This document shows, piece by piece, positions 10,458 through 30,900 of a stretch of 64,000 bases of DNA. Where the stretch lies: the NCBI GenBank assembly GCA_000004985.1, contig GG738880.1; one strand, 5' to 3'. Below the pieces are notes generated by a model. The model had not been told where the DNA came from. It worked only from the letters and a program-made list of their open reading frames with translations, and did not search any database. Source of the DNA: Naegleria gruberi (Eukaryota). The position numbers and the translations under genes were made by a program. The first letter of the stretch is position 1, and each line of letters starts with the position of its first letter.

Positions 10458-12132
10458 CTATCAAAAGTATTGTTGCTGAAATATTTGCTTTTGCTACTTC
10501 TATAATGTGACAATATTCTCTCAGTTGTGTCGAATATATTGTTGATGTCAGCTGAGTGAGTATGAAAGAAATGGACTAATGCGCAATTAGAAAAATCAAA
10601 ACTGATGTGTCAGGCAACAGTTGTTGGTTTTTTTTGGTGTGTTTTTGTTTTTAGAATTATTGTTTTTGGGTATTAGCTGATATTGTCGAACCATGAAAGA
10701 TGGTGGAGCACTATCAAACAACGCAAACACAGTTGGATTCGCATCTGTCAGATGTTCTCAGCAAAACGCCATTAATTTACTGTCAGAAACGACATCATGC
10801 CTGTTGGCGTTATGCTTTGAATTTGAGGGTACCATCAAACAATTGGTCATAGATCAATGGTTTTAATGTCCAATATTTTGTGTGCATACCGAAACATACC
10901 GATTATTTGAGTTGTTTCGAATATGAAAACAAACAAGTAGATGACAAACTTGTTTCCTACCTTATCACCATTTGGTTTAGATCCTCAAACCAAGGCAATC
11001 CACCTGATTTATCTAATCACCCAGATCTGCAACTTTTCCTATTGCATCACTAGATGTTAAATCGAAACTTTCGCATAACACAATTAGTATGGAAAGTTGG
11101 TACTTTCAGGCAGTGCACTGTCTTGTCTCACCTTATCTTCTTGCCTTCAATAATGTTTTGACACAAGTCGACAAGGTTTCAGACAACATTAAGAATTACA
11201 AATCAGAGGAGTCTGAGGAGGTTGACCATATTTGTCATGCATTGCACAAACTGTTAAAATTTTCCATTACTTATTGCAAACTTCATTCCACAAGGAAATA
11301 TTATCATTGGTTCATTATGGCGCACTGTGAAAGCTTGATAGATATCTGTTGGTTGTAATCCACCATCCAAATATTGTAATAATAACATTAATGTTGTTGT
11401 ATAATAGAATACATGTTGTTGTGTGGTTGCAATTAGCAATGTTTCAAAGGTTGTTGATGTTTTCTCAGTCACCACAGTAAAGACCAACACAAATTGGCAT
11501 AGACCGCCTTTTCGGTTTGAATATTTCTTTTAGGAAGAAAATTAATACGCAATCTCAAGAAACGAGGTATAAACAATTATGGCTATCCATCAAAATTTGG
11601 CAGATTTGATAACTATTATAAAATTCGGCGTTTGTAAACCACTTGATTGCTTGGGACATTGGCATGTAAGGAATGCTGTTCCTTTTGGGTTCCTTTGTAT
11701 AATGTTCTTCTTTAGCAATTTTGCAAACCCTCCTTCAAAACTACAGTAAAGAACTACAGTTATTAGATTTGAAACAAAGTGTTGAAAATGTTAAATAATG
11801 AACTCATTGTTTGAGGAATTGGTGCACCTGAGCTCTGTAACACTGACTTTTGTGTGTAATAGGGTAAATTAAAGCGTTGACTATCAGCACTCCGAAACCG
11901 GTTAATATTCAATGCAATATTTGTTATGAGATATCCTAATATTGAGGCGGATCACGTACCACATGTTAAATCAATAATAAGTTCAAATGGTAAATGGGTT
12001 CAAATCTTGGCTTATGTACATGAGACCATGCGAAAGTTAGAGCATTCCTTGTTACATCAAATTCGAAAGTCAATTATCTTGTTTATCTACAGATTCTGAG
12101 TCGATTTACAATTGTACATGGTCAGGAGTTGT

Positions 12133-13359
12133 TTAAATCTTAATATTCTTCGAGTATTTAAGGTGAAGAATGATTGCTGAATAGACAAGTAGACTGTGAG
12201 CATACTTGATGTCTGTGTTAGTGATTTCTACATAAAGACCTCCCTTCAATTTGTCAAATGCCAACAGTTGAGCACGTTTTCTATACTTCCTTTCTTTTTC
12301 TGTTACAAGATCAGACTTGGTTCCAACTAATACCACTTCCATTGGATTGTGTTGTTCCAAATCTTTGATGTGCCTATCCAATCTATCCAAAGTTAGTGCA
12401 CTATTACTTAAATCAAACATGGCAAATGCTACATGTCCTCCTCTGTAGTATATTGGAGATAGTGTTGCAAATCTCTCTGGACCACTGTAATCCCACAATT
12501 GCAATTCAGAGATGGAATTGGGAATGAGTTTGTATCTTTGTTTCAAGAAGGAAGCTCCAATGGTCGGCATGTCTTCCTTTTGTCTACAATTAATATTCTT
12601 AATGGCACACTCCAAAGTGGATGTCTTTCCCACATAACAGTCACCAAGCATGATTACTTTGAAAATTTGTGTCCCCTCAGTGATCATTGGTTTGTTTGGT
12701 TTCCTTTCAATTTGAATCGATGATGCTGAACTGTTATTTTTAAAGAATGATGACAAGTAATGTAAAACTGAACTCATAACACCACTACTATTCTTTTCAT
12801 CTGATTTCTTCTCAATTTCTACTTTGGAATTATTAGAAACAACTTGATCTGAATTAATAGGACTTTCCACCTTCCCAAAGAATTCACTATAACACTCTAT
12901 CATTTCCAATTCAGTTCCAAACCATTCATATTCTTTCTTACAAAAATCCATTGTAATCGTTGCATGCAAATTTTGTGTTCTAACCTCACCCATCTTGGTT
13001 ACCCCAATCAATCGAGTCGCCAATTCATAAACATGTTCCTTAAACATCATCTTGATGAAATTTCTTCCCATTCTACTTTGAAAAAGGCTTGAAAATGCTT
13101 CATCACCACCACTATTATTCGAATCATCATCAACCAATTGCGCATAATCTTGATAACGTTTCCAAATGATCGGAAGGGAAATCTCCCTCCACGACCTACA
13201 AACTCTCACCACGGAAAAGATCAAGTGGGTCATGGATAAATGTTGGAAAATCTCTCCAGTGAGTTCATCCGGAAGGGTGGAAAATATTTCCTGGAAGGAA
13301 TACTGCTTGGTTTTAGAGTTGAAAAACAGGCGAGTGAGGGCTGAATTGTTGTTGATCAT
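12133..13359 (-). CDS. F-box domain plus Ras-superfamily small GTPase fusion protein, 408 aa.
   Basis: ATG start. The N-terminal F-box reads LPDELTGEIFQHLSMTHLIFSVVRVCRSWREI. The C-terminal G-domain has G1 GDCYVGKTS, G3 WDYSGPERF (DxxG) and G4 VGTKSD (NKxD-like), with switch regions recognisable. Confidence 0.7.
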   Translation of the reverse strand: MINNNSALTRLFFNSKTKQYSFQEIFSTLPDELTGEIFQHLSMTHLIFSVVRVCRSWREISLPIIWKRYQDYAQLVDDDSNNSGGDEAFSSLFQSRMGRNFIKMMFKEHVYELATRLIGVTKMGEVRTQNLHATITMDFCKKEYEWFGTELEMIECYSEFFGKVESPINSDQVVSNNSKVEIEKKSDEKNSSGVMSSVLHYLSSFFKNNSSASSIQIERKPNKPMITEGTQIFKVIMLGDCYVGKTSTLECAIKNINCRQKEDMPTIGASFLKQRYKLIPNSISELQLWDYSGPERFATLSPIYYRGGHVAFAMFDLSNSALTLDRLDRHIKDLEQHNPMEVVLVGTKSDLVTEKERKYRKRAQLLAFDKLKGGLYVEITNTDIKYAHSLLVYSAIILHLKYSKNIKI

Positions 13360-13484
13360 TTTTTTTTTAAAGATTTTTTATTGTAATCTCAATGAATAGT
13401 AAATAGTCTTAATATGGAAGGTGAAAAATTTCATCATTTGGGATAAATTGAATGAACCATCATGTGGAAAAGAGGCTAATTTCT

Positions 13485-14459
13485 CTAAGGAATGAGTAAA
13501 ATCTTGCCAGTACTTTTACGTTGTTCCAAAAATTCATGAGCTAGAGCTCCCTCACTCAATTTGAAATTCTTCCACTCACTAATTGTAATCTTTTTTTGAG
13601 AAATCCATGAAAATAATTCAGTGGAACGTTTCAATCTCTCCTCCCTACTTGTTAGGACATTCCACAAGTCGCCACCAGTGAGTGTTTTTGAGCCATCCAT
13701 TAACATTCGTGGATTGATGAGTGGAGGATCGCCACCTGCCATTCCATAGAATACGACAGTTCCTCCAATTTTTGTAATTTTGAATGAGTCCATGATTGTT
13801 GAACCAACTGATTCGTAGACTACGTTAACACCTATTTGATTGGTCAATTGAAGTATTTGTTCAGTCCAATTATCCTTATATAGAAAAACATGATCTGCTC
13901 CAATTTGTTTTGCAATTTCTGCCTTTTCTTCACTTGAAGTCAGTCCAATAACTGTTCCTCCCAATAATTTGATAATTTGGGTAAGCAATTGACCAACTCC
14001 ACCTGCCACTGCATGCACCACTGCAACAGTTCCCTCCTTCACAACAAATGAATCTCTTGTCAAATAATGAGCTGTCAATCCTTGCAACAAGACAGCTGCT
14101 GCCATCTCTGATGAAATCTCATCTGGCAGAGGAATTGCCTTCTCCACAGTAACTTTCACCAATTGAGCATTGGCATGAGGCACATCAGCAAAACCAACTC
14201 TCATCCCCACTCGAATCAAATCAGAGTTCACCTCACTTCCAATCTCTTCTACAATTCCAGCCCCTTCATATCCCAAAATATAGGGAGGTTCTCCCACCAA
14301 ATGATAATTTCCATTCCTTCTGTAAATATCTGCAAAATTCAAGCCAATGGCCTGAGTCCTAACCAACACATCATTCTTTCCAATTTGTGGTTTTTCCAAT
14401 TCTTTCATGTAGAGAACTTGAGAAGCTTCTCCGAATCGATCAAAAACAAGAGCTTGCAT
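13485..14459 (-). CDS. NADPH:quinone oxidoreductase, zeta-crystallin-like, of the medium-chain dehydrogenase/reductase family, 324 aa.
   Basis: Full-length MDR architecture. The N-terminal GroES-like fold reads MQALVFDRFGE...VLVRTQAIGLNFADIY...GYEGAGIVEEIGSEV. The Rossmann nucleotide-binding motif AVAGGVGQLLTQIIKLLG is present. The length is typical of Qor enzymes. Confidence 0.85.
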   Translation of the reverse strand: MQALVFDRFGEASQVLYMKELEKPQIGKNDVLVRTQAIGLNFADIYRRNGNYHLVGEPPYILGYEGAGIVEEIGSEVNSDLIRVGMRVGFADVPHANAQLVKVTVEKAIPLPDEISSEMAAAVLLQGLTAHYLTRDSFVVKEGTVAVVHAVAGGVGQLLTQIIKLLGGTVIGLTSSEEKAEIAKQIGADHVFLYKDNWTEQILQLTNQIGVNVVYESVGSTIMDSFKITKIGGTVVFYGMAGGDPPLINPRMLMDGSKTLTGGDLWNVLTSREERLKRSTELFSWISQKKITISEWKNFKLSEGALAHEFLEQRKSTGKILLIP

Positions 14460-14828
14460 GATACTTTAATTTGTTGTGTTGAGCTTTTTTTTAGAGATTA
14501 TGCATGACGTCTCTTGTGTGATGAGGAGGAGAATTGTTCATTGGTAATTACGGAATTAGAGTAATTAAAGCGTCCTTATTGATGGAAAGTTGCAATTGTT
14601 TTTACTGTTTTTTTTGGAGTTGATGTGAAAATGTCTGAACTCACTCTTCTAGTCTGTGAATCATGGCAACTTCTGCTGGATATTAAGCCATGCTGAACTC
14701 TTATTGTGAATCTACGAAGAGTTTCGTCTTGTTTTTTAGAAGAAATATGTTAAATTAATTAAAAATACACTATTTTATTTAAAACACAGCGCGTTAAGTA
14801 TTGAAAAAAGACAAACTATTTTGATCAC

Positions 14829-16202
14829 TTATTGTTCAGTGTACTTTTTCAATTCTTGTTGGAGATTCCAATTTTCCTTTTCCAAAGCTTCAACACGTTG
14901 TCTCAATTCTTCATTTTGCTTGACCAATTCTTGTGGATTTGAAGTCTTGGCTGGCAAAACAGTCTTTGGTTGTTTGGCCTTAATTTCAACGTTTGGTTTG
15001 AAATCACGGAATTGAACATCAATTTCCTTATCTTCTGGATTCATGGAAACCAAAGATAATTCAGCATCTTGACCAGAGAAGTAATCAGAAGCAGACAAGG
15101 CAGGAGATGGAGAAGCAGTCTTTGGATAGATATCAGATTGGAACAATTCAGACTTTCTTGGAACAGTGAATGAAATTGGAGTAATTTGATTAGCAGTCAA
15201 CTTGAACAATCTGACAATTTCGTTAGAAGTAGTATCAACAGCAATCTTTGGAAGCATAGCCATACCCATTTGTGGATCAGTTGATCTAAATTCAGACAAT
15301 GAGTGAATGTATGGTTCTTCATTAGTAACTTCAAAGAATCTAATGTTACCATCACCCTTACCAGCCAAGAAGAGCAAATTAGTATCTGGATCATAGAATG
15401 GCATAATCAAACCAGAAGCCATATCAATATTAACAGTGTGCAATGGCTTTTCCAATGAACGTGGATCCCACATCATGTATTGTCTTTCAGAGGTCTTTGA
15501 GAAACCAACAGAGAACAATCTATCAGTATTGGTAATCCATTGAACACGAGATCCCTTAGTACCACCATGACCTTCAACTTCAAGAGCAACTGCACCCTTT
15601 CTAGGATCAATAATTCTCAACTTTTTATCCTTTGAAGTGGAGGCAAACAATGAACCATTCTTATTGAAAGAAATTGATTGAATATCTTTCCACAAATCTT
15701 TCATTTCAACTTGGCTCTTACCAGTTTCAATATCCCACAAAACAACTTTGTGATCTTGACCAGCAGTCAACAAGACATTGTTAGCAGTTGGATGGAATTC
15801 CAACAAACCAACCTTCTTCATGTGACCTTCCAATGTAACTGATGGTTCAGTAACAGTGCTTGTCAAACCATCTTGTGGAATTGACCAAATCTTGGCAGTA
15901 GCATCAACTGAACCAGTTGCCAAAATATATTGATTGAATGGATGGAACTTTAAATCCAAAACAGCACCAGTGTGGCCAGATAAAAGTGGCAAATCAGCAG
16001 CTTGTTTACCTGGAGTCTTTTGGTTCAAAACAGCAACTGAACCACCACCACCTTGCCATGGAACAGCAACGAACAAGGCATTAGCAGCAAGCCAATTAGA
16101 ATCCCAAGCACCAACATTTGGACGAATGTTTTGGAAGGCGAATTCTGCCTTGTATGGTTCACCGAAAACGTGACGATAGAGTGATGATCTGACAATGGAC
16201 AT
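14829..16202 (-). CDS. corA: Coronin, an actin-binding WD40 beta-propeller protein with a C-terminal coiled coil, 457 aa.
   Basis: Strong colinear similarity to the Dictyostelium coronin I recall. The N-terminal signature is MS.VRSS.YRHVFG...WDSN..AAN. WD repeats such as GHTGAVLDLKFHPFN and LEGHMKKVGLLEFHP follow. Further conserved blocks are VGFSKTSERQ, LFLAGKGDGNIRFFEV, YIHSLSEFRS and ISFTVPRKSELFQSDIYP. The tail is a heptad coiled coil (ELVKQNEELRQRVEALEKENWNLQQELKKY). Confidence 0.9.
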   Translation of the reverse strand: MSIVRSSLYRHVFGEPYKAEFAFQNIRPNVGAWDSNWLAANALFVAVPWQGGGGSVAVLNQKTPGKQAADLPLLSGHTGAVLDLKFHPFNQYILATGSVDATAKIWSIPQDGLTSTVTEPSVTLEGHMKKVGLLEFHPTANNVLLTAGQDHKVVLWDIETGKSQVEMKDLWKDIQSISFNKNGSLFASTSKDKKLRIIDPRKGAVALEVEGHGGTKGSRVQWITNTDRLFSVGFSKTSERQYMMWDPRSLEKPLHTVNIDMASGLIMPFYDPDTNLLFLAGKGDGNIRFFEVTNEEPYIHSLSEFRSTDPQMGMAMLPKIAVDTTSNEIVRLFKLTANQITPISFTVPRKSELFQSDIYPKTASPSPALSASDYFSGQDAELSLVSMNPEDKEIDVQFRDFKPNVEIKAKQPKTVLPAKTSNPQELVKQNEELRQRVEALEKENWNLQQELKKYTEQ

Positions 16203-17383: not shown

Positions 17384-20300
17384 ATGTCATCAACCCGATC
17401 AATTTTCCTTCAAATTTTCATCACTTCCTTCATTGTTTTGTTTTTTTCATCATTTAATTGTTTTTTATTATTATCAGATAATGAACATGATAATAATGAT
17501 GGAATAATCATACAATCGACAAGAGAATCAGGATTAAGTTTCGGATTGGTGGAAGCTAGTCTATTTTATGGAAATATTACACTTTCGAATATGAATTATT
17601 TGACCTCTCTTAGGTATAATCCAATTTATTATGATTATCCGAATGGAATTTTATATGCTTTTGGAGGAAATGATAGTAAGAAACGAGTTACAAAATCAGT
17701 GGCTGCTACTAAATCTTTAAGAGAAATTAGAAAAAGTAATGGAAACGTTTACAATACAACTGTTCATTCAGATTTTGGAGATTTTCAACAAATTTCAACT
17801 CTCACCACTGCTATGGTCAATTATGCTGTTTATTCGATTAATAATCCAACTGGTGGAAGATTAGTTTATTTATTTGGTGGAGATTCAACATTTGGAATTA
17901 TTCAGGCCTCTAACTCAATTACTAATCTAAATTATTATTCACCAAATTTGGCAAATATTCCACCAACCTATTTTGCACACTTCATTACTGAACAATATAT
18001 TTATTTAATTGGTGGTATTTCGAATGGTGGTGTTTATGATAATGGAATTTTCAGAGCTAATCTTTCAAGTTTATTAACTCAATGGGAAAGATTTGCTGAT
18101 TTTCCAGTAACTATTGCAAAGGCAAATGCATTTCTATTGAATGGAGATGTTTATGTCATTGGTGGAAAGAATAATGAGACTGATGATAATCGGATTGTTT
18201 ATTCTGTTCCATTGAATGATTTGGAAACACTTTCTGCTAATTTTATTGAGATTGCTACCTTGAGCCGACCAACAGTTGGTTCTTCACTCGTATTGACAAG
18301 GGATTATGGTTTCCTATTTGGAGATGAGAATGCTGGTTCTGGAGTAGGTATTGATACTGTCCTTGTTTTTCCCACAAGTGATGTTTCACAAATATTCGAA
18401 ATTGGTATCAATGATTATTATTTCTCTTATGGTGTTCCAGTTGTGGTTTCTGGAACTATTGCTAGTTTCTTTGAGAGCACTCGTTCAGAACTTGTTGAAA
18501 TTGAATTGGCATCAGATGCAGTTCCATATTGTTTCGGATTGGATGCAACGAATCCAGTTGCATGTTCGGGACATGGAAATTGTGTTGCCAATGAATACTG
18601 CAGCTGCAAGAGAGGATATTATGGCATGGATTGTTCAGTCACCTTTCTATGCAATGGAACCATTTCCTATTCTCAGAATGTGTGCAGTGGCTACGGTTCT
18701 TGTGTCAATACGGATGAATGTTCCTGTAGAGCCAATAGAGATGGAAAGTTTTGTCAATTCAGTTATTGTAGTGGTATTCTTAATACTGATCCAACAGTTT
18801 GTAATGGAAAGGGATCTTGTGTGAATTCAGTTTGTCAGTGTGAGCAGGGATTTTATGGAAGTGAGTGTAAGAATTATTCGTGTTACGAAATACCTTCCAC
18901 TAATTCTTCAGCTGCATGTTCAGGACATGGCACTTGCAATTCACCAAATAATTGCACTTGTTATGGACCTTATTCTGGAGACATGTGTCAGAGATTTTAT
19001 TGTGGAATTTTCTCGAATGAAGATGCCGATATGGCTTGTAGTGGGAATGGAAAGTGTACTGAACCTGGCAAATGCACATGTAACAGTGGATTTTATGGAG
19101 CCAATTGTGAATCTTTTAATTGTTATGGTGAAATATTCAATAGTTCAAGAGTGTGTAATGGAAACGGTTCATGTATTTCACCAGATCACTGCACATGTCG
19201 AAATGGCTATACTGGATCAAACTGCTCAATTCCAACTTGTTTTGGAGAGAATGGCACCTTGGCTTGTGATTCACACGGAATTTGTACAGCTCCTGATACA
19301 TGTAATTGTACAGGAGGATACTATGGCAGTAGATGTTCAATGTTTACGTGTTTTGGAGTCGATTACAAGGAACCATCTGTTTGTTCTTCTGAAGGTTCTT
19401 GTGTAGCTCCAGATACTTGTGAATGTAATCAATTCTATACAGGAAATAACTGTTCTCATTACACATGTTTTGATGTGAGAGATGACAATTCAACTTTAGT
19501 TTGTTCAGGAAATGGAAAATGTACCAAACCTAATGTTTGTTCATGTAAGGAGGGATACACTTCTGCCAATTGCTCTGCGTATTCTTGTAATGGTATTGGA
19601 CATGATAATTCAAAGGTCTGTAACTCTGTTGGTGTTTGCACATCACCAAATAATTGTACCTGTCAATCAGGTTACTATGGTTCTGATTGCCAAGTTTCAG
19701 AGTGTTTTGGAATTAGAAGTGATAATCAAAGTGTTTGTTCTGGAAGAGGTGAATGTAGTGGAAGAAATGCTTGCAACTGCTCTCAAAATTATTTAGGATC
19801 CCAATGTGAATTGACATCTTGTTTCGGCATTCTTTCGAATATATCCAATGTCTGTAATGGAAATGGAAAATGCATAGACTTTGATCAATGCTCTTGTAAG
19901 GAGGGATATTCAAGTCCCCAATGCACAGATTTCTATTGTGGAACTTTTCATTTTAATAATTCTGCAACTTGCTCCGGAAAGGGAAGTTGTGTTTCGCCTA
20001 ATTCATGCAACTGCTCAATTCCCTACTTTGGAAAGTATTGTGAAAACTTTAATTGTTTCAATATTTTGAATAACCAATCAACAGTTTGCTCTTCACATGG
20101 ATCTTGCATAGCTCCCGATACTTGCAAATGTGAAGAAGGTTATTTGGGACAAAATTGTTCCTCCTTTTCATGTTTCAACAAGACAGCTGATAGTGATGAT
20201 GTTTGTTCTGGAAGAGGTTTATGTATTTCACCAAATACATGCATGTGTACTGTGGAAGGGTTCCTTGGAATGGATTGCAACTTGTCATTGCCATTTGATA

Positions 20301-23300
20301 TTTATTTGAATGTTTCGAATAGTATTGTTATTTATAGTGATGATAATCCAATTATTGGATTCAAAGTTTTATCAAATTATAACGAATCTGATTTCTTTGG
20401 ATACAGATTAACATCTTCTGGAATTGCTCCTGTCAATCAAAAGAGCAATGAATTTACTCTTGACACTAGTCAACTTTCTATTGGCCTTACCAATTATTTC
20501 CTAATTGCCAGATTGAAGAACAGCAGAACTTCCTCATCTCTAAAACTTTCTGTTGTGAAATTACAAAAATCCAGACCATCAATTGCAATTTCCAAGTTTG
20601 TATCTGTCAATGTTCCTGAATTTATTGTTTCTAGAAATGCCACAACATTTGACTTTTATTTATTGAACTTGACAATTAGTGGGCAGTCTGTTTCTTCATT
20701 ATTTGGATGTAATTCTAAATGTTTAGCCGATTATTCTTATTAATATTTACTTGACAGGTGATTCTTTGGATTCAGTTTACAATATTTCCTCTTTACAAAG
20801 TTCTTCCTATGTTCTTATCAGTGATGCAAGCAATTCTATTGGATTTAGTCCAATTCTTCAAATTCCATCCTTTACTCTAACTAAATCTCAATTGGAACAA
20901 GCAACATTTTTACAATTTGATTTTACAATTGGATCTGCAATTGGTTCCAAGAGAATTCCAATCATTTCTGCACCAAAACCAAAGAATGGTGTACTCACAG
21001 CTAGTAGCTCAATTTCAAGAGGAGTTGCCCTGACAGATGCCTACAACATTGCATCAGTTGAGTTTTCAGCTGCCACTCAATTGTTACCTCTCAGTTATGC
21101 TTATGCATTCTATGAGCCATCACAAGGCAGAGTTCTTAGAATGAGTTCATTCTCTACTAGCTCAGTTGCCTCCATTTATTTACCATTCATTGCAAGCAGT
21201 GGAAACGTCAGTTCAGTTGACATTTATTTACTTGTTAAGGATGATTTGGATTTTATTGATCAGTATTACATTTTCACTCTAGAAGTCACACCATATTTAG
21301 GAAATACTGATTCATTGTTCAATCAAACTCTTCCAGATTCTATCAAGACAGTTTTTGCGTATGATAATTCCATCAAACAGTCGAATTCTGTTGCAGATCA
21401 AGTTGTGAAAAACATTGAAATTCCAACAAATTCACCAGAAGCATCTCTCTCTGTCATTCAACAAATTCTTCCACAAAATGCCAATACTCCATCAGTAGTT
21501 AAGGAAGTTCAATCAAAAGTTCAATCATTCCTTGGCAGTGTCCAAACAAGTCAATCAGAGGAAATGAAAAAGTATGGTTTCGTAAAGAATCCACTCAGTA
21601 GTACTGCACTCCAATCGACTTTGAATCTCATTTCGGATTTATTCTCATCCAATAGGAAATATCCAGCTACTGGAAACACTTCAACAACAGAATCTCTAGT
21701 TTTATCATTTAGTAAGATTTTACTTTCGAATGCTTTACCGAAAGTTGTCAATTCCAAAGATTCAGACCTACCAAATGTTAATTATCATTCCAGTGAAATG
21801 AATGTCACTGTCTCTTCACTAATTTTCGGCTCAACCACTGACAATGCAATTCAACAAACTCTTCATGGAACAAACTCACAACTTTCATTGAATTTAAAGA
21901 AAGTTGCCAAACAATTTGGTGGAGAATCAACAAATATTGGATTATCATTGATAACCTATTCTCAAAATGTTAAATCGGATAATTATTCTGCAAGTGTTCA
22001 ATCTGGATCAACTCTGGTTGAATTTAAATATTATCAAGATGCACAAGTAGTGACATTGAAGGATTTGGATTCACCATTTACTTTGATATTCACACCACTC
22101 AATGATCAAATCAAACAAAATTTAACACTCAACACTACGAATGTTAAATGTATGTATTGGAATGAGGAAGTGTCAATGTGGAAATCAGATGGCTGTCAAT
22201 ATTCAAATTCCTCAAAAGATTCTATCATTTGTCAATGCACTCACACAACCAAATTCTCCACTTTTATTGAGTATACTTCATCCTATTCGAACACAACTAA
22301 ATTGACCGAAACTGAACTATTGTACATTGCCAGCGTGTACAGTGCAGAGATTAGTTTTGGAATAATGTTTGCAATCTGCTCTGCCATCATTCTCATTGTC
22401 TTGATTATTTACAGGAAGGAACAACCATTACTTTCAAGATTCTTGACTCCATTCTTGGGAATGCTTGCTCTATTAGTGGAAAGTGTTTTAATTTCAATTG
22501 TGCAAAGATCTGTACTTGTTAGTCAACTCTTACCAAGTCAATCTAAAATGTGGGAATCTGGAGGCGAAACTGCCACTAATATTGTTGGAAATGTCACTAT
22601 GATTATTGTAAACACATTGAATTTGACAGCCATCTTGGCATATGTCATCCAAGTTATTAGATTCCAGCTCCTCAAATATTTATATGATGTGATAGCTCAG
22701 AAGAATAATGGTCAATCATTCATGATGAAAGTATTGAGATTCGTCACTTCTAAAAAGCTTTTCGTCACTCTGATTGTCATTTCATTAATCTTTAATTTGT
22801 GCTATTGGTTAATGTGGGTCTTGTTAGTGAGATTGAGTGTTATTACTGCATCTGTTTATACTGAGGCAGTTTCCATTTCGTATACAGTTATTATATTCGG
22901 ATATAGTGTGATTATTAGTATTATAGCAATTGTGGATATTATTTCTAGTACAAGACAAAAGAAGATTAAGAGGAGAAGAAGGTCAACTGTCAATTCATTG
23001 TCTTCAACTAGCTCAACAAAATCATCCCAGTCACTTATTCCATCAAAATCTACTCGAAGATTCTTTTATTTGGATGCTCCTTTATTTTTCAGATCTGAAA
23101 TGTTCATGTATTTGGTCTGTTTTGCACTCATGATTATTCAACAAGTTATTGGATTAGTTTCTAATAATTTCAGATTTATTGATGCAAATGCTTATGAAAT
23201 TGCAATTTATTTTGATGGAATTCGATTTGCATTTGAAGTATTGTACACTTGTGTGTATTTACTTGTATTTGGAGGTTTTGCTATTCTTGTACTAATTGTC

Positions 23301-23831
23301 TACAAGGTAAAAATTAACAAGAGAAGAAAACAACTGGTCAACCAAGATTTACAAGATACTGAAATGATTGAAACCATCTCGGATGACAGAGGTTACGACC
23401 TCTTTGAACAATTCTGCATCCAAGAATTAGCTACAGAAAATCTCTACCTCTTGGAATTACTGAGATACAATCCAGAGTTTGTGGAAGGAAGAAGTATGAA
23501 TGAATTGCCAAACTTTTTAGAAACCATTCATGATTTGTTCATCAAGACTGGAGCCGTTTCTGAAGTGAATATTCCATCAACAACTAGAAAGAGATTCCTG
23601 CAAATGATGAAACTTGTAAAGGAGGAAAAGAAAATGTCAGTTGAAAAGATAACTCTTGAAGTTCAGCAATGTTTTGAAGAATTGCATGATCAAGTTTCTG
23701 TTAATTTGGGAGATACCTTTTCAAGATTTGTTCTAACAGAAATTTATGAGCAATACAGGAATCAACGTGCTTTGAAAATGGAATTGGTCAAACAAGCCAA
23801 TATTGATATTGAATTGGAAAATTTGAAATAA
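17384..23831 (+). CDS. Giant receptor of about 2,100 aa. Order of domains: signal peptide, Kelch blades, 15 tandem EGF-like modules, Ser/Thr-rich stalk, GPS (GAIN-type) motif, 7 transmembrane helices, C-terminal RGS domain. Exons are 17384..20708 and 20758..23831.
   Basis: ORFs 17384..20743 and 20751..23831 join in frame across a 49-nt intron with a GTAATT donor at 20709 and a TTGACAG acceptor at 20757. Kelch signatures are YAFGGND, LVYLFGGDS, YIYLIGGIS and VYVIGGKN. Fifteen repeats follow the pattern CSG.G.C..P..C.C..GY.G..C. The GPS-like motif is CMYWNEEVSMWKSDGCQYSNSSKDSIICQCTHTTKFSTF. Seven hydrophobic helices follow. The RGS signature blocks are FEQFCIQELATENLYLLELLRY, IHDLFIKTGAVSEVNIPSTTRKRF and LTEIYEQYRNQ. 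Confidence 0.75.
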
Positions 23832-23961: not shown

Positions 23962-26900
23962 TTAAAAAAGATCATCTTCTCTTGCTTGTTCAGCTACAAA
24001 AATCTTCATCTTCTCCATTACTCTCCTAGAAATATAGAACAAGTGTGTATCAGAAAGTCTTTCAAAGAGTGGGGAATTGTACAAGTGTTCCAATAACATG
24101 CAAGTTTCTGGGAGAATGCCTTCACCATGTAATTCTTCCAAGCAATATTCTGTTAATCTGAATATCGAAGTGGCCATGGCAATCTTCTCCTCATCCAAAT
24201 CTTCATTACTATCAGAAATTACATGTTCAATGAAACTAGAACTGAAGGACATGTATTCAGGGGCAACAAGATCAATATCAATCAAACTAATATAAGCAAT
24301 AGTAATGCAAACATTTGATAAATATCCAGTAATGTCATCAATAACCTCTTCAGTTGTGTAAAAGTCCTTATTGGCAAATAATTTCAAAACTCGAATCAAT
24401 TTTGGAGCCATCTCCTTCATGAACTTGTAAAATCTTTCATCTTTAACACCCTTTCTACCAGCAGATAGAATAACTCTTCCCAAAGACCATACTGCATTGT
24501 GATAGACAATAATCTTCTTTTTCATGATGGAATCATCTTCAAGAGTAGTCTCCTCATAAAATCTGTCACCTACAACGGCTTCCTTTTTCAAAACCTGAAA
24601 GACAAAATCATATAAAAAGTCGTGGGTTGCATCTTGTGGAGTAACCTTGCCAGTTTCCTTATCAACATCGAATGGACACAAATGGAACAAGTCAGCATTA
24701 CTCATATTACCAATGGTGTGAACAGCACAATCTCTGGCTCTGTAATTACAATGGTTATGGCAAACTCTGACGAATTGTGTGAGGAAGGTGAACATGTCGT
24801 GTTTCTGGAAGAGTTCTACAAGAACCTTGCCATCAATATTTCTCATAACAGCATTAATTGTTGTAGAAAAGGCAGAAATTAAATCTTCAGTCTTGTCAAC
24901 TTCCTTCAATGTGAAAATATTTTGCATAATTTGCTTCTTTCCATAATCGAGGAATTTCTCAATAAGATTGGTATCTGAAAAGTGCCTTGTAAATTCCAAC
25001 GAGTCGTAGAATGAGTCAAAGAGACAAACCACAACAAGGTGATGTTGTCTCTTCTTTTCTTCTTCAGTGAGATTTTCCAAATCTTCAGGATAAATCAACT
25101 CTCCACTTTCACATATCTTTTCAAACAAGTTGGAATATAACTTGTTAAAATGTGGTGTGAATCTAGTGTAGGTTCCCTTAGAGTATGATGTTTTGGTAGT
25201 GACTATTGGTTGATTGTCATCATCTACGAGAGTAATCTTTCCACTCTCGAGCTTGTCTGTAACAGCTGTAATAATGACACTGAATTTCACAAAGTTCTGT
25301 ACAAAGGTCTCGCAAGTTTTCAGAATTTCTAAAATAAAACTCTCCTTCAAGACTTTCATTTCTGAAATGTAGCTGGCAAGTGAGACACAGGCAGCTTCTC
25401 TAATGCTATAGTGACTATCTACAAGCTTTTTAGGCAGCAATTCCATAATTTCCTTTCTGAAAACATGAATAAACTCAATAATCTCTTTGATTTCATCAGA
25501 GGTATCAGCTTGATTGCTAATATGTTCAATTAGACCCCAATTATTCGAGGCCTCTCCTTCTCTGTTGGTATACAGCTTACTGAAGGCAAATGTGACCAAA
25601 ATGGCGGTTTGCTTTACTATAATGTCATGAATATCCACTGGTGCTTGTTTCATTTCTTCCAAAGCATAACGACAGAATGGATCCACAAAATTTTCAATAA
25701 CAAATTCAACAATTTCATAACTTGGAACAACATTTCCAGTTACTCCACCTTTTTTCAAGACATCATTAATTATTCAAATTTGTAATTTAACAATATTAAA
25801 TGAAATATTAAATATGAAATTAACATCAAATGATAAAATTTCTCACATACCTCCTAGAGTAATATTAGTTGTGAGCATTTCTCTCACTAGAATACCCACA
25901 CAATTGTAGGCCTTTTGACGAACAGTCCAACTGACTTTTCCTCTATTTCTTCCCTCCGTCAGTCGTAAAAGAGGATTTGACACACCGGTTACTTTCAAGT
26001 CCTCTAAAAGCATTGGTAACAGAGCTATACAAAGTGGCTTACCAAAGCAATTGCACAAGGCTCCTACTACTGTTTGTGAGTGAGCTCGTATGCTGTCCAT
26101 ATTTCTAAGTAGACCCTCTCGAATGTGAGATTGAGTACTCTCATATTCACTAAACTCGTAAATTAAAGGAAGGAATGGTTCGAACATATAATCCTTGATG
26201 ATGTGAGCAATGAATCTCTTCATGTCCTTGATTTGTGCAATTGTAAGATTGGTTTTGAGTGGATCCGAGAAGGTTGAATGTTGCATTGTTGATGATGGTG
26301 TTGTTGTTGTTCTTATTTCATCTAGCTCGTTTGCTCCAACAGTTCTGAAACCTCTTCCGTCAAATACATCCTCAAGTTCATCTTCTTCATCTTCGTCGTC
26401 TTCATCCTCTTCGTCTTCCTCATCGAGAGCCATTTGTTGATCTTCTCTGTGAGTTGAAGTAATTGAAGAGATGAATACTCCCCAATAAATTAAGCATTCC
26501 TTCAATAGTCTTTCTTCAATGATATTTCTATTCCATTGAGTAATTTCCGAAGAGGTGGCATTATCGAGAGTGTGTTTTACCTTTCTATCATAGAAATACT
26601 TGAGTAGAATGAATTGGAAGAAGGGTAAACTTTGGAAAGTCGATCCCTTCAATTCTGGTGCTTTCTTCTTCTTGATTGCATTCAAAATTCGCTGTCTATC
26701 TGTTAATTTTGGTTTTGGACCAAATTCATGTAAGTATTTAATTCCCCAAGGTAATAACTCTGTTAAAAAACTAGTAAGGAAATAATACATGAGCATTACC
26801 CAATTGGGTATTGAATCATTCTCATTAGTATAAATAACTGTAGCAGCATGTGTCCTCCACGGAAGAACCTTAAAAGTATTATCCTCTTCCTCTGCCCACT

Positions 26901-27405
26901 TTTCATAATCATACTCCTTGTAATTATCCATGAATATCTGATAGGATTTTTCATATAATTTATAAATCTTACTGTGCAATAGCAAGACATGATTAAATAA
27001 TGGTTCAAAGAATTCAAAGTCAATATCTTGTCCAAGCTTTATATGATAAATAAGATACCTAAAAGATAAAATCATTGTTCTAATATTCAGTACTATTTCA
27101 TCATCACTCGATTGAAAAAGATTGTCGGTTATTATCAACTCTCTATACTTTCCTTCCACCTCCAAAAACGACTCCAAAATATTCATTGTCCTTTTTTGTG
27201 TCTCATCGACAGACATTTCTTCATGCTTTGAATAGGTCTTATCCTTTTCAAAAGATACTAGATTTGTTACAAACATCCGATGCTTCTCACTCGGAATGTT
27301 GGCTTGCAAATGCTTCACCAGCTTATCAAAAAAGCTTTTAATATCAAACGTCGTTGATGATGGTGTTGAAGCTTCTTGTTGTTGAGGCATTTTTTTTGTG
27401 TTCAT
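23962..27405 (-). CDS. Large alpha-helical protein of about 1,130 aa, HEAT/ARM-repeat-like, function unknown. Exons are 25851..27405 and 23962..25748.
   Basis: Upstream ORF 25843..27489 has its first ATG at 27405 (MNTKKMPQQQ). It ends at a GTATGT donor at 25850. The acceptor AAAAAAG at 25749 continues in frame into ORF 23962..25758, giving a 102-nt intron. An acidic (D/E)n tract is encoded by a GAA/GAT microsatellite near 26340-26430. Predicted secondary structure is all-alpha and repetitive. Confidence 0.6.
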
Positions 27406-27911
27406 CTTCAAATTTTCATATTTTTGAAACGGAAATTTTTTTGTTGAACAAATATTGCAACAATTTTGAGCGGAATGATTAAATCTCAAAGAAAAAATCT
27501 CATCCTATTTACAAAGTTTATTGTATTTGATATTAAATTTTTCTTGGAATGTTTTAGAAGCCATTAAAGAAGATGTTGTTATTGGCGCACTTTTTTTGGT
27601 AACGCTTCCAAATAGCAGTTCGATGTCGCATTTTTCAATTTTTAAAAAAATTTATTAAAAAAAATTGATCGAACACATCATCAATAATTTCTCTTTGTTG
27701 TTGGAAAATCTTCTTTTTTGATTGTGGCCACAATACACCGACAAACAATAGCAACAGCAATAGTATATTTAGTAAATTGCAGAGGCTTATAGAAGAATAC
27801 AACATTATAAGAACAACAACAACAATTTTGGATCTGAAAGAAACAATCTTTGGATACCAATTATACTAGTAGTAGAATAGATAGTAATTTATTTACATTT
27901 TAATCGGAAAG
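27406..27911. promoter_or_regulatory. Divergent promoter interval between the minus-strand HEAT-like gene (ATG 27405) and the plus-strand LisH/HEAT gene (ATG 27912).
   Basis: About 500 bp, AT-rich and ORF-free, with poly-T/A tracts. The genes diverge head to head. Confidence 0.35.
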
Positions 27912-30900
27912 ATGAATGATTACGTAGCCAACTATTTAATCAAGAATAATTTCATGCTCACTGCATTGGAATTCTATCAAGAACTTTTGGAAGAAGGACA
28001 AGAATTAAAACTTTTGAGAGATTACTTTGAAAACAAGGAATATAAGAATGAACAAGCATCATCATCCAACAGCAATGGTATGATGATTCAAGTCGATTCA
28101 CAACATACAAAAGCTCTCGAAGAACAATTAAAAAAGAAGGATGAAACCATTTCAATGATGGAATACGAAATTAGACTTCTCCAATCAGATATTGCCAAAT
28201 TAAAAGGTCAAGCAAAGGAAAGTTTTGTTATACCAACAGTAAACAAAACAGCTAAAGCAAATGAAAACACTGAAGGTAATGAAGATGAAAATGCCGAAGG
28301 AAATGATGAACCTACAACACCAAATGTAGATCACAAGATGGCCTCCGAACCATTAACAGTACACGAAAAGCAAGTTGTAAATTATCTTGTTAAAGATTAC
28401 TTGGTTAAACAAGGATATAAAATCAGTGCTATTAGTTTCACTGATGAAGTACACGAAATGGACATGTTCAATTTAGATGAAGTTTTATCAAATAGTGATG
28501 AAAATGAATTGCCAATAGGTTTGTCATATCTGTATAGACACTATTATAGTGGAGGTGATAAGACCAAACAAAATATGAAGGACACAAAGGCACTCAGAGA
28601 AGCTCTTGCTCAATTGGAACAAAAGGATAAATTGATTCAATCTTTGGAAAAGTCAATTCAACGTCAAGATAAAGCAATAGAAAAGCTCAAGTCTCAACTT
28701 GAATCTAATGCAACATCAGCAACTACTTCAGATGAAACACCACTAAATTCAAGCACTGATGAATCTAACTCAGTTGTTTCACAAGATGTTATGGTACTTC
28801 AAGCCAAACTTAGAGAATTTGAAAATCAAGAATCGAGTATTATTCAAATTTTGGGTGAAAAACTCCCTGCTCTTTTGGAAACAGCCAAATCAAACAAGAG
28901 ACAAGAATTCATGCCAATTCTTGTTGCAACCCTCCAATCACACCCAGATGCCGAAGTGAGAGAAACACTCTCCGAATCTCTATTCAATCTCATCAAGAAA
29001 CCTGATGATCAACAACGTCAAATGATCATTAATGGATGTATTAGTTTAGCTAGACGTATTTCTCCAGATAGATTTGAAAAGGAACTTCTCCCTCAATGTT
29101 GGAAACAAATTACTCACAAGTATACTGAAAGAAAAATACTGGTTGCTGAGGCCTGTGGTGAATTATCTCACTACGTAAAGGCCTCTCTGAGACCAACAAT
29201 GCTCTTGACAACTCTCTTCAAACTCATGGAAGATAAAACTGATGAAGTGAGAGCTTCAGTTGTTATCAACTTGGCCAAATTAGTCAAGACTTTCACAGAG
29301 GAAGAAGATGTTGAAAGTAAGAGTAAATATTTCCAAATCGAAGAAATGACACTCAAATTCCTGTACGATAAGTCAGAAGCTGTTGAAGATGCTGCAACAA
29401 CACAACTTGTACCATCTCTCATAACATGGTGCTTTACCTTTGATTATTTATTTGAAAAGTTTGCTCCAACCCTGTTGAGTAACATTGAGAATTTGATTAA
29501 GAAGAGACTCAAGAGTGGATCAAATGCCAGTAGCTCCAAGATTGTTGTCCTTTTGAGATGTTTCAGTGGTGTCATACCATACATTCTCAAATTAATGACC
29601 AAGACAATGCCAGCAGAAATTCACAACTCTGAAAATACCAAGGATGAACAATCCATGAAAAAGATTATGGATAAGTATATTGGAGAAACTTCTCTTTCGG
29701 ATTTGGAAAAGACCAAGTCTGCATCTTGGAAGGGTCTTTACTGGTTACTCAATGTTTGCACCAGAAGACTCTTATCTGTTGCTGCCTCTGTAAACATTGA
29801 ACATACCAATGTAAGTATATGGATTTTAATTGTTAATATCAACAATATTTAAAGATTTCTAAAGAAATTTACACAATTTTCAATGGATTATGTGAAGCAT
29901 TTGGAGAACCTGTTATTTCAAAGATTTTCGAACAAAAGATTGTTTCCCTCTTGGAAACAAGCTCAGACACCATCATTGACGGAACTATTGAAGTTGTAAA
30001 GAAGGAAAAGGACACTGAAAGAACCAGTGTAACTATTGTAAAGGAAAGACTCTTACCAGTGTATATTTGTGGTGTATTACCATTCAGTCCTAAGGAAAGA
30101 ATTTCTGAAGTACTGAGAACACTCATTATCAATGTATCCATCTCAGAGAGAACATGGGAAAGCTCACATATGCCATTCTTGTACAATGCCCTTATTAGCG
30201 GTGTAACCATGAATGAAAAGCTGAGAAATGACATTCTTACTGTTGTATGCAAACTTGCTGTTAATCCTTCCAAGGTTGTTCGTTCATCAGTTGCTGATAT
30301 TTTAACTGAATTAATTGAACCATTGGAATCTGAAATTTTGGCAGCTCAAATCTTGCCTGCACTCATTACAGTTGCCTCTGATATGGAATCTGACATTAAG
30401 ATGAAGGCTGTTAGAGGTTTGGGAATTTTGGCATGTAGTTTGAGTGAAGTAGCAGATTTTAACAAGCTCTCCACTCAATTTGACATGCTTTTAGATTCTA
30501 GAGATAGAAGTATGTTCAAGGAAGTGTTGAACGTTTTTTCAGAAATTATTCCTCAAGTTGATCCATACTTCCGTGATAGTTTCATGATTAAGAAATTAGT
30601 CTGGCTAGGTAAACAAAATAACCAAAATAGTGATTTGAGAGATCGTAGAGATACTGCCAATTTATTATTGGACAATTATCGTGCTCTTAATGGATGTATT
30701 ATGACCGATGAAATTATTTCTGACATTATTGAAGGATTGAAACTCTTGTCGAATGATTGTGAACTCATTACTGACTCTTCTGTAGCATCATTTGTTTCAC
30801 AAATGAAAGAAGAATTGGAAGCCATTGTCCAACAACATGCCAAGGAACAAACAAAGGGCTCAACTCTTATTTCATTCTCTGCACTCATTGACAAGATGAA

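What the first reader, a model, noticed from the sequence alone, without database searches (positions are those of the whole stretch)
17384..23831. Giant receptor combining Kelch blades, 15 EGF modules, a GPS autoproteolysis motif, 7TM and a C-terminal RGS domain in one polypeptide
Two ORF-track ORFs fuse in frame across a 49-nt GTAATT..ACAG intron (20709..20757) into a protein of about 2,100 aa. Read from the translation, the order is a signal peptide, then four Kelch-type blades (YAFGGND, LVYLFGGDS, YIYLIGGIS, VYVIGGKN), then fifteen tenascin-type EGF modules of invariant spacing (CSGxGxC..P..CxCxxGYxGxxC). A Ser/Thr-rich stalk follows, then a GPS-like motif CMYWNEEVSMWKSDGCQYSNSSKDSIICQCTHTTKFSTF (the W..W..C..CxC-H-T/T pattern of adhesion-GPCR GAIN cleavage sites), then seven hydrophobic helices. 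The tail has the three conserved blocks of an RGS fold (FEQFCIQELATENLYLLELLRY, IHDLFIKTGAVSEVNIPSTTRK, LTEIYEQYRNQ). A GPCR that carries its own G-alpha GAP is known in plant AtRGS1-type proteins. Coupling that to an adhesion-GPCR GAIN/GPS stalk and a very large EGF/Kelch ectodomain is, to my knowledge, an unusual and possibly undescribed architecture. It would be a self-terminating adhesion receptor.
Basis: partly seen in the sequence, partly recalled or inferred. Interest (0 to 1): 0.8.

Follow-up and report, generated by a model that had tools for sequence, protein, structure and literature searches.

The report
Naegleria adhesion-type 7TM-RGS receptor gene
This is a real, very large surface-receptor gene of the amoeba Naegleria gruberi that joins an adhesion-receptor-like outer part to a seven-helix membrane domain and a built-in G-protein "off switch", but this receptor type was described in Naegleria fowleri in 2022, and the proposed 49-base intron is more likely coding sequence with a one-base error.

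Summary

Three points need correcting:
- The "Ser/Thr-rich stalk" is a REJ-like region followed by a GAIN domain.
- The 49-nt intron is probably not an intron. All 21 homologues examined have conserved residues there. A no-intron model that drops one T at 20740/41 scores 160.8 bits.
- The architecture is not new. Bosch et al. 2022 (PMC9283941) described 28 "7TM RGS" proteins in N. fowleri. Several have GPS motifs, EGF repeats and lectin domains, and the RGS domains of 7TM RGS2-4 showed GAP activity on Gα.

At least 76 cluster representatives span GPS to RGS. The 7TM core shows no specific kinship to adhesion GPCRs. Most likely function: a receptor-GAP whose ectodomain state tunes GAP output on Gα. 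Verdict: new member of a known kind; interest about 0.3.

The parts
17384..17476 (+). Start codon and N-terminal hydrophobic signal-peptide-like segment (aa 1-31). It is absent from the public model, which starts at Met70.
   Evidence: The hydropathy peak at aa 11-29 has mean KD 2.2. P0006 begins at aa 70 of this ORF. Paralogues P0018 and P0027 have comparable N-terminal signal-like segments.
17561..18538 (+). Kelch-type beta-propeller region (about aa 60-385). Four clear '..[FI]GG' blade motifs sit at aa 89, 160, 206 and 256. Further degenerate blades are likely.
   Evidence: On the isolated N-terminus, Pfam Kelch_1 scores 25.8 bits (cutoff 20.1) and Kelch_KLHDC2 scores 27 bits, below its cutoff. 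The blade motifs are listed. The AlphaFold single-sequence model failed (pLDDT 31).
18563..20278 (+). Array of 15 teneurin/tenascin-type EGF modules (aa 394-965).
   Evidence: Pfam EGF_2 gives 3.4e-49 over 14 stretches, EGF_TEN 1.3e-45 and EGF_Teneurin 2.3e-39. The regex finds 15 modules and the region holds 90 Cys.
20279..21383 (+). It spans the ORF1/ORF2 junction.
   Evidence: It is homologous to the same region of 21 family members, scoring up to 160.8 bits. In homologues P0003 and P0004 this region passes Pfam REJ PF02010 at 34.8 and 28.4 bits against a cutoff of 25. The window protein itself gives no REJ hit at E<=0.1.
20709..20757 (+). Disputed junction. The last reads ...GCNSKCLADYSYNIYLTGDS...
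   Evidence: Sequence. Public model. Homologue alignments. Profile scores are 160.8 / 146.1 / 135.2 bits and 96.6 / 78.0 / 69.1 bits. Every single-nt deletion between 20725 and 20743 beats both intron models. 61 alternative GT..AG pairs exist.
21384..22277 (+). GAIN-like domain: helical subdomain A followed by beta-sandwich subdomain B (about aa 1318-1615, 49-nt-intron numbering).
   Evidence: The AlphaFold model has helices at model residues 24-145 (pLDDT about 60-87) and strands at 154-320 (pLDDT about 28-61). Foldseek hits: inactive CD97/ADGRE5 8ikj at E 6e-6, and the GAIN domains of BAI3 4dlo, CELSR1 8vy2 and BAI2 8oek at E 3e-3 to 1e-2.
22149..22265 (+). GPS motif CMYWNEE..W..GC..CQCTH-T|T-KFSTF. 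The predicted scissile bond is T1605|T1606 (nt 22247|22248). It is followed by a Stachel-like strand, TKFSTFI.
   Evidence: Pfam GPS scores 42.9 bits. A family profile hits only adhesion GPCRs in the PDB; ADGRF1 at 1.5e-6 aligns HL|TSFSILM with HT|TxFxxF. HT|T is present in 75 of 76 family representatives.
22335..23318 (+). Seven-transmembrane domain (aa 1635-1962), with a basic, Ser/Thr-rich loop between TM5 and TM6.
23373..23756 (+). Cytoplasmic RGS domain (aa 1981-2108). The stop codon TAA is at 23829-23831.
   Evidence: Pfam RGS scores 28.7 bits (cutoff 23.9) and covers profile positions 5-117 of 117. Weak alignments to RGS7, RGS1 and RGS4 keep the 'EN' and 'N' contact positions. E-N, E-x-N-x-P and D-T-F-x-R are invariant in six family members.

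Best explanation
Window 17384..23831 (+) is one gene of Naegleria gruberi, NAEGRDRAFT_80461. It encodes a type-I-oriented surface protein of about 2,130-2,150 aa. The protein belongs to the Naegleria family of 'GPS-7TM-RGS' receptors; many further family representatives come from unnamed metagenome sequences.

Shown here:
- The domain order is signal peptide, Kelch-type propeller, 15 EGF modules, REJ-like region, GAIN domain with a GPS, a 7TM bundle with a generic GPCR fold, and a cytoplasmic RGS domain.
- The topology is consistent with this order. There are 40 N-glycosylation sequons and 96 Cys outside, and basic loops inside.
- The RGS contact residues and the GPS/Stachel-like motif HT|TxFxxF[ILV] are conserved across the family.
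- The ORF1/ORF2 break is most likely a one-base indel in the assembly (or in this allele) rather than an intron.

Inferred mechanism:
- The RGS domain is a GTPase-accelerating protein for Naegleria Gα subunits, as measured for N. fowleri 7TM RGS2-4.
- The receptor therefore holds Gα in the GDP state. Some Naegleria Gα subunits are 'self-activating', that is, fast-exchanging.
- Engagement of, or force on, the large adhesive ectodomain is passed through the GAIN/GPS module to the 7TM bundle, possibly by exposing the tethered TKFSTFI strand after autoproteolysis.
- That signal changes GAP access to Gα, or triggers receptor removal from the membrane. G-protein signalling then rises by de-repression, as in plant AtRGS1.
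For: Identity:
- P0006, the top hit of the exhaustive profile search, is identical to the window translation except for its start and the junction. It is named XP_002675075.1 / NAEGRDRAFT_80461.

Domains:
-.

Family:
- 92 representatives score E<=1e-30. 76 of the top 93 cover GPS through RGS, with a median length of about 1,650 aa.
- Named members occur in N. gruberi (at least 11), N. fowleri and N. lovaniensis.

Conservation:
- HT|T is present in 75 of 76 representatives, with F at +3 and F/[ILVM] at +6/+7.
- E-N, N and D..R of the RGS domain are invariant in six members. These correspond to RGS4 E87/N88, N128 and D163/R167; that correspondence is from my own knowledge.

Mechanism by analogy:
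- PMC9283941 reports 28 N. fowleri 7TM RGS proteins, several with GPS, EGF and lectin domains.
- In that paper the RGS domains of 7TM RGS2-4 accelerate GTP hydrolysis on Nf Gα2, 3, 5 and 7. A switch-1 G-to-S mutation abolishes this. Gα5 and Gα7 are self-activating.

Junction:
-.
Against: - No functional datum exists for this protein.
- The GAIN subdomain B is modelled with low confidence: pLDDT about 28-61, whole-model pLDDT 63, pTM 0.45.
- The residue before the scissile bond is Thr, not the Leu typical of cleaved adhesion GPCRs, so autoproteolysis is unproven.
- The TM core has no sequence similarity to adhesion GPCRs or to any Pfam 7TM family. A tethered-agonist pocket therefore cannot be assumed.
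- In N. fowleri, 7TM RGS proteins also act on slow-exchanging Gα, so pure 'de-repression' may be too simple.
- If the frameshift is real in the organism, this copy could be non-functional.
- No transcript evidence was available, so a short intron cannot be formally excluded.
Confidence: 0.7

Rival explanations
1. One reading: a true adhesion GPCR that activates Gα as a GEF and carries its own GAP, so that each signal is self-terminated in cis.
For: The GAIN/GPS module and a conserved Stachel-like strand are the hallmarks of adhesion-GPCR activation. The TM bundle has a GPCR fold. N. fowleri 7TM RGS domains also act on slow-exchanging Gα subunits, which would need a GEF (PMC9283941).
Against: The TM core matches no 7tm_2/adhesion profile. 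Structurally it is as close to class C and class A receptors as to ADGRL3. No 7TM-RGS protein has been shown to have GEF activity in the papers read here. The characterised paradigm, AtRGS1, works as a regulated GAP.
Confidence: 0.15
2. The frameshift at about 20741 is real in the genome, and this copy is a recently inactivated pseudogene or null allele of a multigene family.
For: As assembled, ORF1 ends in TAA at 20741-20743 and the downstream frame is +1. The best-fitting protein needs one base removed. The family has at least 11 N. gruberi paralogues, so redundancy is plausible.
Against: 1,026 codons remain open after the shift, and all conserved GPS, TM and RGS residues are intact. Any inactivation would therefore be very recent. 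A single-base assembly error explains the same data.
Confidence: 0.1
3. A short spliceosomal intron (37 nt as in the public model, or 49 nt) really is removed, and this paralogue has simply lost 12-16 residues of the REJ-like region.
For: Both candidates have GT..AG ends and restore the frame. The public gene model chose the 37-nt version. A CTTGAC branch-point-like sequence precedes the AG.
Against: The 'intron' translates in frame into the family's conserved C-x3-C...Y-S-[WY]-x-[IL] strand, which all 21 homologues keep. The profile penalties are 14.7 bits (37 nt) and 25.6 bits (49 nt). The homologous locus L001 is uninterrupted there. The candidate branch A lies only 2 nt before the AG. 61 GT..AG pairs fit by chance.
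Confidence: 0.15
4. The RGS domain is a non-catalytic scaffold (as in GRKs or RGS-like RhoGEF domains), and the protein signals by other means.
For: The Pfam score is only modestly above threshold (28.7 against 23.9). Direct matches to solved RGS proteins are weak (E 0.045-0.75).
Against: The residues that contact Gα switch regions are invariant in the family. The N. fowleri 7TM RGS2-4 domains are active, canonical GAPs.
Confidence: 0.08

Closest known systems
Naegleria fowleri '7TM RGS' proteins (Nf 7TM RGS1-4 and 24 others; Bosch, Jeck & Siderovski 2022, PMC9283941)
   Same: They share a C-terminal RGS domain after seven TM helices, a GPS motif before TM1, and large ectodomains with EGF repeats. 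N. fowleri family members are found directly: P0005, and P0008 in the FDP41_005437 cluster, score 424-668 bits against the family profile built from this protein and two Naegleria homologues (A1).
   Different: This is the N. gruberi paralogue NAEGRDRAFT_80461. Its ectodomain begins with a Kelch-type region rather than the lectin domains mentioned in the paper. No biochemical data exist for it. The paper does not mention REJ-like or full GAIN domains, or the HT|T site.
Arabidopsis AtRGS1 (plant 7TM-RGS)
   Same: It has seven TM helices followed by a cytoplasmic RGS domain. It acts in a system with self-activating Gα, where the GAP is the regulated step.
   Different: As I recall (not checked here), AtRGS1 has only a short extracellular N-terminus and no GAIN/GPS, EGF or Kelch domains. 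Homology between the two TM domains was not tested here.
Metazoan adhesion GPCRs (for example ADGRE5/CD97, ADGRL3, ADGRF1, BAI, CELSR)
   Same: They share a large adhesive ectodomain with EGF repeats, a GAIN domain with a GPS immediately before TM1, and a conserved T-x-F-x-x-hydrophobic-hydrophobic strand after the site. The best structural match of the GAIN+7TM model is inactive CD97.
   Different: The TM core is not detectably 7tm_2. The site reads HT|T instead of HL|T/S. The C-terminus carries an RGS domain, which no animal adhesion GPCR has (de Mendoza 2014 found 7TM-RGS architectures absent from metazoans).
Polycystin-1 / PKDREJ / sea-urchin REJ proteins
   Same: A REJ domain lies directly upstream of a GAIN/GPS module next to the first TM helix. 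The REJ Pfam profile is significant in two family members.
   Different: Polycystin-1 has 11 TM helices with PLAT and channel-partner regions and no RGS domain (my own knowledge). The window protein itself does not reach the REJ threshold.

Membership tests
Naegleria GPS-7TM-RGS receptors ('7TM RGS', Bosch et al. 2022) | RGS domain C-terminal to seven TM helices | tested here: met
   RGS scores 28.7 bits against a cutoff of 23.9 at aa 1981-2108. Seven hydrophobic segments and model helices lie at aa 1635-1962.
Naegleria GPS-7TM-RGS receptors ('7TM RGS', Bosch et al. 2022) | End-to-end sequence homology with named Naegleria members | tested here: met
   N. gruberi P0001 matches at 43% identity (E 1e-115) and N. 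lovaniensis P0002 at E 8e-82. N. fowleri P0005 matches at E 2e-121. 76 of 93 representatives cover GPS to RGS. Names are given.
Naegleria GPS-7TM-RGS receptors ('7TM RGS', Bosch et al. 2022) | GAP activity of the RGS domain on Naegleria Gα | not testable with these tools
   Only residue conservation can be shown. Activity was measured for N. fowleri 7TM RGS2-4.
Adhesion GPCR (class B2) | GAIN domain ending in a GPS directly before TM1 | tested here: met
   GPS PF01825 scores 42.9 bits. Foldseek matches CD97 GAIN+7TM at E 6e-6 and the BAI3, CELSR1 and BAI2 GAIN domains. Model confidence in subdomain B is low.
Adhesion GPCR (class B2) | Cleavage consensus H-L|T/S and autoproteolysis | tested here: inconclusive
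   His at -2 and Thr at +1 are present, but the -1 residue is Thr. This is conserved as HT|T in 75 of 76 relatives. Cleavage itself cannot be tested here.
Adhesion GPCR (class B2) | 7TM core homologous to 7tm_2 (secretin/adhesion) | tested here: not met
GPCR fold (7TM superfamily) | Seven-helix bundle superimposable on solved GPCRs | tested here: met
AtRGS1-type plant 7TM-RGS | 7TM plus C-terminal RGS with Gα-contact residues kept | tested here: met
AtRGS1-type plant 7TM-RGS | Sequence homology of the TM domain to AtRGS1, and a short N-terminus | not tested
The ectodomain of about 1,590 aa here clearly differs from the short AtRGS1 N-terminus (my own knowledge).
Kelch beta-propeller | Kelch repeat profile above threshold | tested here: met
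   Kelch_1 scores 25.8 bits against a cutoff of 20.1 on the isolated N-terminus. It scored only 10.9 bits in the whole-protein scan.
Kelch beta-propeller | A closed propeller of about six blades | tested here: inconclusive
   Four GG motifs were found. The single-sequence AlphaFold model is unusable (pLDDT 31).
REJ domain (PF02010; polycystin-1/REJ type) | REJ profile above threshold upstream of the GPS | tested here: inconclusive
   The window protein gives no hit at E<=0.1. Homologues P0003 (34.8 bits) and P0004 (28.4 bits) pass the cutoff of 25. The window region aligns to the same region of homologues at 96-161 bits.
Spliceosomal intron at 20709..20757 | GT..AG ends and restoration of the frame | tested here: met
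   However, 61 such pairs exist nearby.
Spliceosomal intron at 20709..20757 | The removed sequence is not conserved coding sequence | tested here: not met
   The removed stretch encodes NSKCLADYSY, matching the family motif C-x3-C..Y-S-[WY]. Profile scores are 135.2 bits (49 nt) and 146.1 (37 nt) against 160.8 (no intron, minus 1 nt).
Spliceosomal intron at 20709..20757 | Transcript evidence of splicing | not testable with these tools
   No RNA data could be reached.

The most novel reading that the evidence does not exclude
The GAIN/GPS module of this family is an active autoprotease with an unusual, family-wide HT|T site. The exposed TxFxxF[ILV] strand would act as a tethered ligand for a 7TM bundle that is not of the adhesion/secretin class. 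Its output would be control of a fused RGS GAP rather than G-protein activation. That would make the tethered-agonist mechanosensing mechanism older than, and separable from, animal adhesion GPCRs, and wire it to de-repression signalling through self-activating Gα. A far less likely alternative (about 2%) is that the TAT-TAA-T site at 20738-20744 is read by programmed +1 frameshifting.
Probability: 0.25. Interest if true: 0.65.

Novelty: new member of a known kind. Interest (0 to 1): 0.3.

Why it matters
For biology, the finding adds little that is new. 7TM-RGS receptors with GPS motifs and EGF-rich ectodomains are documented in Naegleria fowleri, and this N. gruberi gene is already in the public protein set.

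What this check adds:
1. A corrected gene model. The signal peptide that the public model lacks is restored, and the junction is read as coding sequence with a 1-nt indel.
2. The 'stalk' is recognised as a REJ-like region plus a GAIN domain, a polycystin-1-like juxtamembrane module.
3. The GPS/Stachel-like motif HT|TxFxxF[ILV] is almost invariant in 76 family clusters, while the TM core is not adhesion-class.

The third point makes one question directly testable in a tractable, non-pathogenic amoeba: can a GAIN tethered peptide regulate a GAP-type receptor?

Tried and rejected
- Word-indexed homologue search with the C-terminal 606 aa found only two proteins and missed the gene's own database entry. 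The same tool with the 656-aa middle region found nothing. Candidate lists were probably swamped by low-complexity words. The exhaustive profile search fixed this.
- Exact-product look-ups did not help. The neighbouring coronin, paralogue P0001 and ORF1 returned nothing. No independent assembly of this locus could therefore be compared.
- The whole-protein Pfam scan did not report GPS and under-scored Kelch. Scanning isolated pieces was needed.
- The AlphaFold single-sequence model of the Kelch region was unusable (pLDDT 31), so it was not used for a fold search.
- Pfam REJ on the window's own middle region gave no hit.
- My first junction profile was built from homologues chosen because they carry the motif, which is biased. 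I repeated it with all 21 eligible homologues and no motif selection. The ranking was the same.
- 'Two separate genes' was considered and rejected. Homologues are continuous from the EGF array to the RGS domain. ORF2 has no ATG start codon of its own (the ORF lister's first start codon is a TTG at 20751) and no signal sequence.
- Literature search for 'Naegleria' plus 'GAIN domain' found no paper.


Full report
**What is there.**
- The window is eukaryotic, about 35% G+C, and contains assembly gaps.
- Two long + strand ORFs, 17384..20743 (1,119 aa) and 20751..23831 (1,026 aa), lie end to end in different frames.

**Identity.**
- An exhaustive profile search was run with the C-terminal third aligned to two first hits.
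- Its best match, P0006 (2,067 aa, 1,105 bits), is identical to the window translation apart from its start and the junction.
- P0006 is Naegleria gruberi 'predicted protein' EFC42331.1 / XP_002675075.1 / D2VLM2, locus NAEGRDRAFT_80461, on a 416-kb scaffold.
- The window is therefore N. gruberi genome sequence, and the gene is already in public databases, uncharacterised.

**Domain check.**
- *EGF:* Pfam on the whole protein gives EGF_2 (E 3e-49, 14 stretches) and teneurin-type EGF. There are 15 six-cysteine EGF modules, with 90 Cys in aa 381-975.
- *RGS:* 28.7 bits against a curated cutoff of 23.9, at aa 1981-2108.
- *GPS:* not reported in the whole-protein scan, but the isolated piece scores 42.9 bits (cutoff 22.5).
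- *Kelch:* the isolated N-terminus passes Kelch_1 at 25.8 bits (cutoff 20.1). Four '..FGG/IGG' blade motifs are present. The number of blades could not be settled, because the single-sequence AlphaFold model of this region failed (pLDDT 31).
- *Membrane spans:* hydropathy shows an N-terminal signal-like segment and exactly seven hydrophobic segments between aa 1635 and 1962.
- *Topology:* the ectodomain has 40 NxS/T sequons and 96 Cys, and the tail has no sequons. Read from the sequence, the loops after TM1, TM3, TM5 and TM7 are basic. This fits an extracellular N-terminus and a cytoplasmic RGS domain.

**Structure.**
- An AlphaFold model was made of aa 1295-2132 with five homologues. Mean pLDDT is 63 and pTM 0.45. 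The TM helices and RGS domain are mostly 70-90, and the GAIN beta part is about 28-61.
- The model shows a helical subdomain, a beta subdomain ending in the GPS strand, seven long helices and a helical C-terminal domain.
- Foldseek against the PDB puts inactive CD97/ADGRE5 (GAIN+7TM, 8ikj) first at E 6e-6. The GAIN domains of BAI3, CELSR1 and BAI2 follow.
- A 17-member family profile of GPS plus 7TM hits adhesion GPCRs with every match at E<=0.05 among PDB sequences; the only non-adhesion matches are bacterial efflux pumps at E about 0.06. The adhesion-GPCR matches cover the GPS and the following strand, occasionally TM1, and not the TM core. No Pfam 7TM family is hit.
- The juxtamembrane module is therefore adhesion-GPCR-like, and the TM core is of undetermined class.

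**The 'stalk'.**
- The region between the EGF array and the GPS is not a simple Ser/Thr stalk.
- It aligns with the same region of family members.
- Two of them pass the Pfam REJ profile there: P0003 at 34.8 bits and P0004 at 28.4 bits, cutoff 25.
- REJ followed by GAIN/GPS is the arrangement seen in polycystin-1 and REJ proteins (my own knowledge).

**The junction.**
- The GT..AG pair is weak evidence, because 61 pairs of 25-400 nt restore the frame. The public model chose a different one, 37 nt, 20721..20757.
- Read straight through, ORF1 ends ...LFGCNSKCLADYSY*.
- Homologues have, at exactly this place, GC-x3-C-x3-6-[YF]-x-[WYF]-x-[VIL]. Examples are P0003 GCKANCTTSLTYSWQL and P0012 DCSFSYSYSIKL.
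- Skipping one T at 20740/41 gives GCNSKCLADYSYNIYLTGDS..., which continues in the ORF2 frame.
- A profile from 13 motif-bearing homologues scores this model 96.6 bits, the 37-nt intron 78.0 and the 49-nt intron 69.1.
- That selection was biased, so I rebuilt the profile from all 21 eligible homologues. The scores were 160.8, 146.1 and 135.2 bits.
- Every single-base deletion between 20725 and 20743 beats both intron models.
- A homologous metagenomic locus (L001) is one uninterrupted ORF from the EGF array to the RGS domain.
- I conclude that the 'intron' is most probably coding sequence with a one-base indel. This is either an assembly error or, less likely, a real null allele. Without transcripts or reads I cannot tell these apart.
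- On any of these junction models the two ORFs belong to one gene (a real null allele would truncate its product).

**Family.**
- 1,032 representatives match at E<=1e-3 and 92 at E<=1e-30. 76 of the top 93 span GPS through RGS, with a median length of about 1,650 aa.
- Named members are N. gruberi paralogues (at least 11), N. fowleri and N. lovaniensis. One N. gruberi paralogue is already called 'G protein coupled receptor proteolytic domain-containing protein'. Others come from unnamed metagenome contigs.
- By eye and by Pfam, ectodomains vary: EGF arrays, NHL-like repeats, bulb-lectin-like and Kelch-like regions.
- The site reads H-T|T in 75 of 76, followed by x-F-x-x-F-[ILVM]. This aligns with the HL|T-S-F-S-I-L-M tethered agonist of ADGRF1.
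- In the RGS domain, E-N, E-x-N-x-P and D-T-F-x-R are invariant in six members and align with the Gα-contact positions of RGS7, RGS1 and RGS4. The residue roles are from my own knowledge.

**Literature.**
- Bosch, Jeck & Siderovski 2022 (PMC9283941) report 28 seven-transmembrane RGS proteins in N. fowleri.
- They show that the RGS domains of 7TM RGS2-4 are selective GAPs for Nf Gα2, 3, 5 and 7, of which Gα5 and Gα7 are self-activating.
- de Mendoza et al. 2014 (PMC3971589) note that 7TM-RGS architectures occur in many bikonts, chytrids, filastereans and ichthyosporeans, but not in metazoans.
- The architecture is therefore described. A Kelch-type N-terminus, the REJ-like region and the HT|T conservation are not mentioned in the text I read.

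**Mechanism.**
- *Shown:* the domain order, the topology, and conservation of the GAP-contact and GPS/Stachel-like residues.
- *Inferred:* the protein is a receptor-GAP. Its RGS domain keeps Gα·GTP low. The state of the adhesive ectodomain is relayed through the GAIN/GPS module to the TM bundle and alters GAP access or receptor residence at the membrane, raising G-protein signalling by de-repression, as for AtRGS1.

**Verdict.** This is a real gene and a correct domain reading, and the family is interesting. It is nevertheless a new member of a known kind, with a misjudged intron.

Noticed in passing
window 60608-60904 and 63679-64000: Two near-perfect (99%) arrays of the same hexamer, TTTGGG, written (GGTTTG)x50 and (TGGGTT)x54. 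Both are on the + strand, the first next to an assembly gap and the second running to the end of the window. They explain the strong GC skew (0.30-0.36) at 60-64 kb. They look telomere-like, but their meaning is unknown.
   Followed up: no
window 60606-61772 (+): An ORF that starts inside the hexamer array continues into what looks, by eye, like a histidine-kinase ATPase region and a response-regulator receiver ('ILIAEDNPINRKV'). It is probably a hybrid sensor kinase whose 5' end is lost in a gap.
   Followed up: no
window 17384-17591 versus public model XP_002675075.1: The public gene model starts at an internal Met (aa 70) and so lacks the signal peptide. The ATG at 17384 gives a hydrophobic N-terminus like that of paralogues.
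   Followed up: yes
whole spliced protein (17384-23831): The Pfam GPS hit (42.9 bits on the isolated piece) disappears when the full 2,132-aa protein is scanned, and Kelch_1 drops from 25.8 to 10.9 bits. Whole-protein scans of such repeat-rich proteins under-report domains.
   Followed up: partly
window 48241-48290, 49735-50119, 55003-59675, 60907-60956, 62933-62982: These are runs of N (scaffold gaps). The 'ORFs' at 54974-59707 on both strands are artefacts of the 4.7-kb gap.
   Followed up: yes
window 6425-16202 (- strand) and 27912-29852 (+): The neighbouring genes are unrelated to the finding: a dual-specificity phosphatase (6425-7927), an F-box + Ras/Roc GTPase fusion (12133-13359), a zinc alcohol dehydrogenase (13485-14459), coronin (14829-16202) and a LisH/HEAT protein (27912-29852). 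The F-box-Ras/Roc combination is unusual.
   Followed up: no
window 23962-27489 (- strand): Two adjacent same-strand ORFs (598 and 548 aa, no Pfam hits) are separated by about 84 nt beginning GTATGT. They are probably one gene with a short intron.
   Followed up: no
spliced aa 1841-1883 (window about 22953-23081): The loop between TM5 and TM6 is very basic and rich in Ser/Thr (STRQKKIKRRRRSTVNSLSSTSSTKSSQSLIPSKSTRR). It is a plausible phosphorylation cluster for receptor regulation or internalisation. It is poorly conserved in sequence and poorly modelled (pLDDT <50).
   Followed up: no
locus L001 (Logan SRR29240419 contig), 1-4573: A homologue from an unnamed sequencing run carries the same EGF-REJ-GPS-7TM-RGS order as one uninterrupted ORF that runs off the contig start. 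Many family representatives come from metagenomes of unknown taxonomy, so the family may extend beyond Naegleria.
   Followed up: partly
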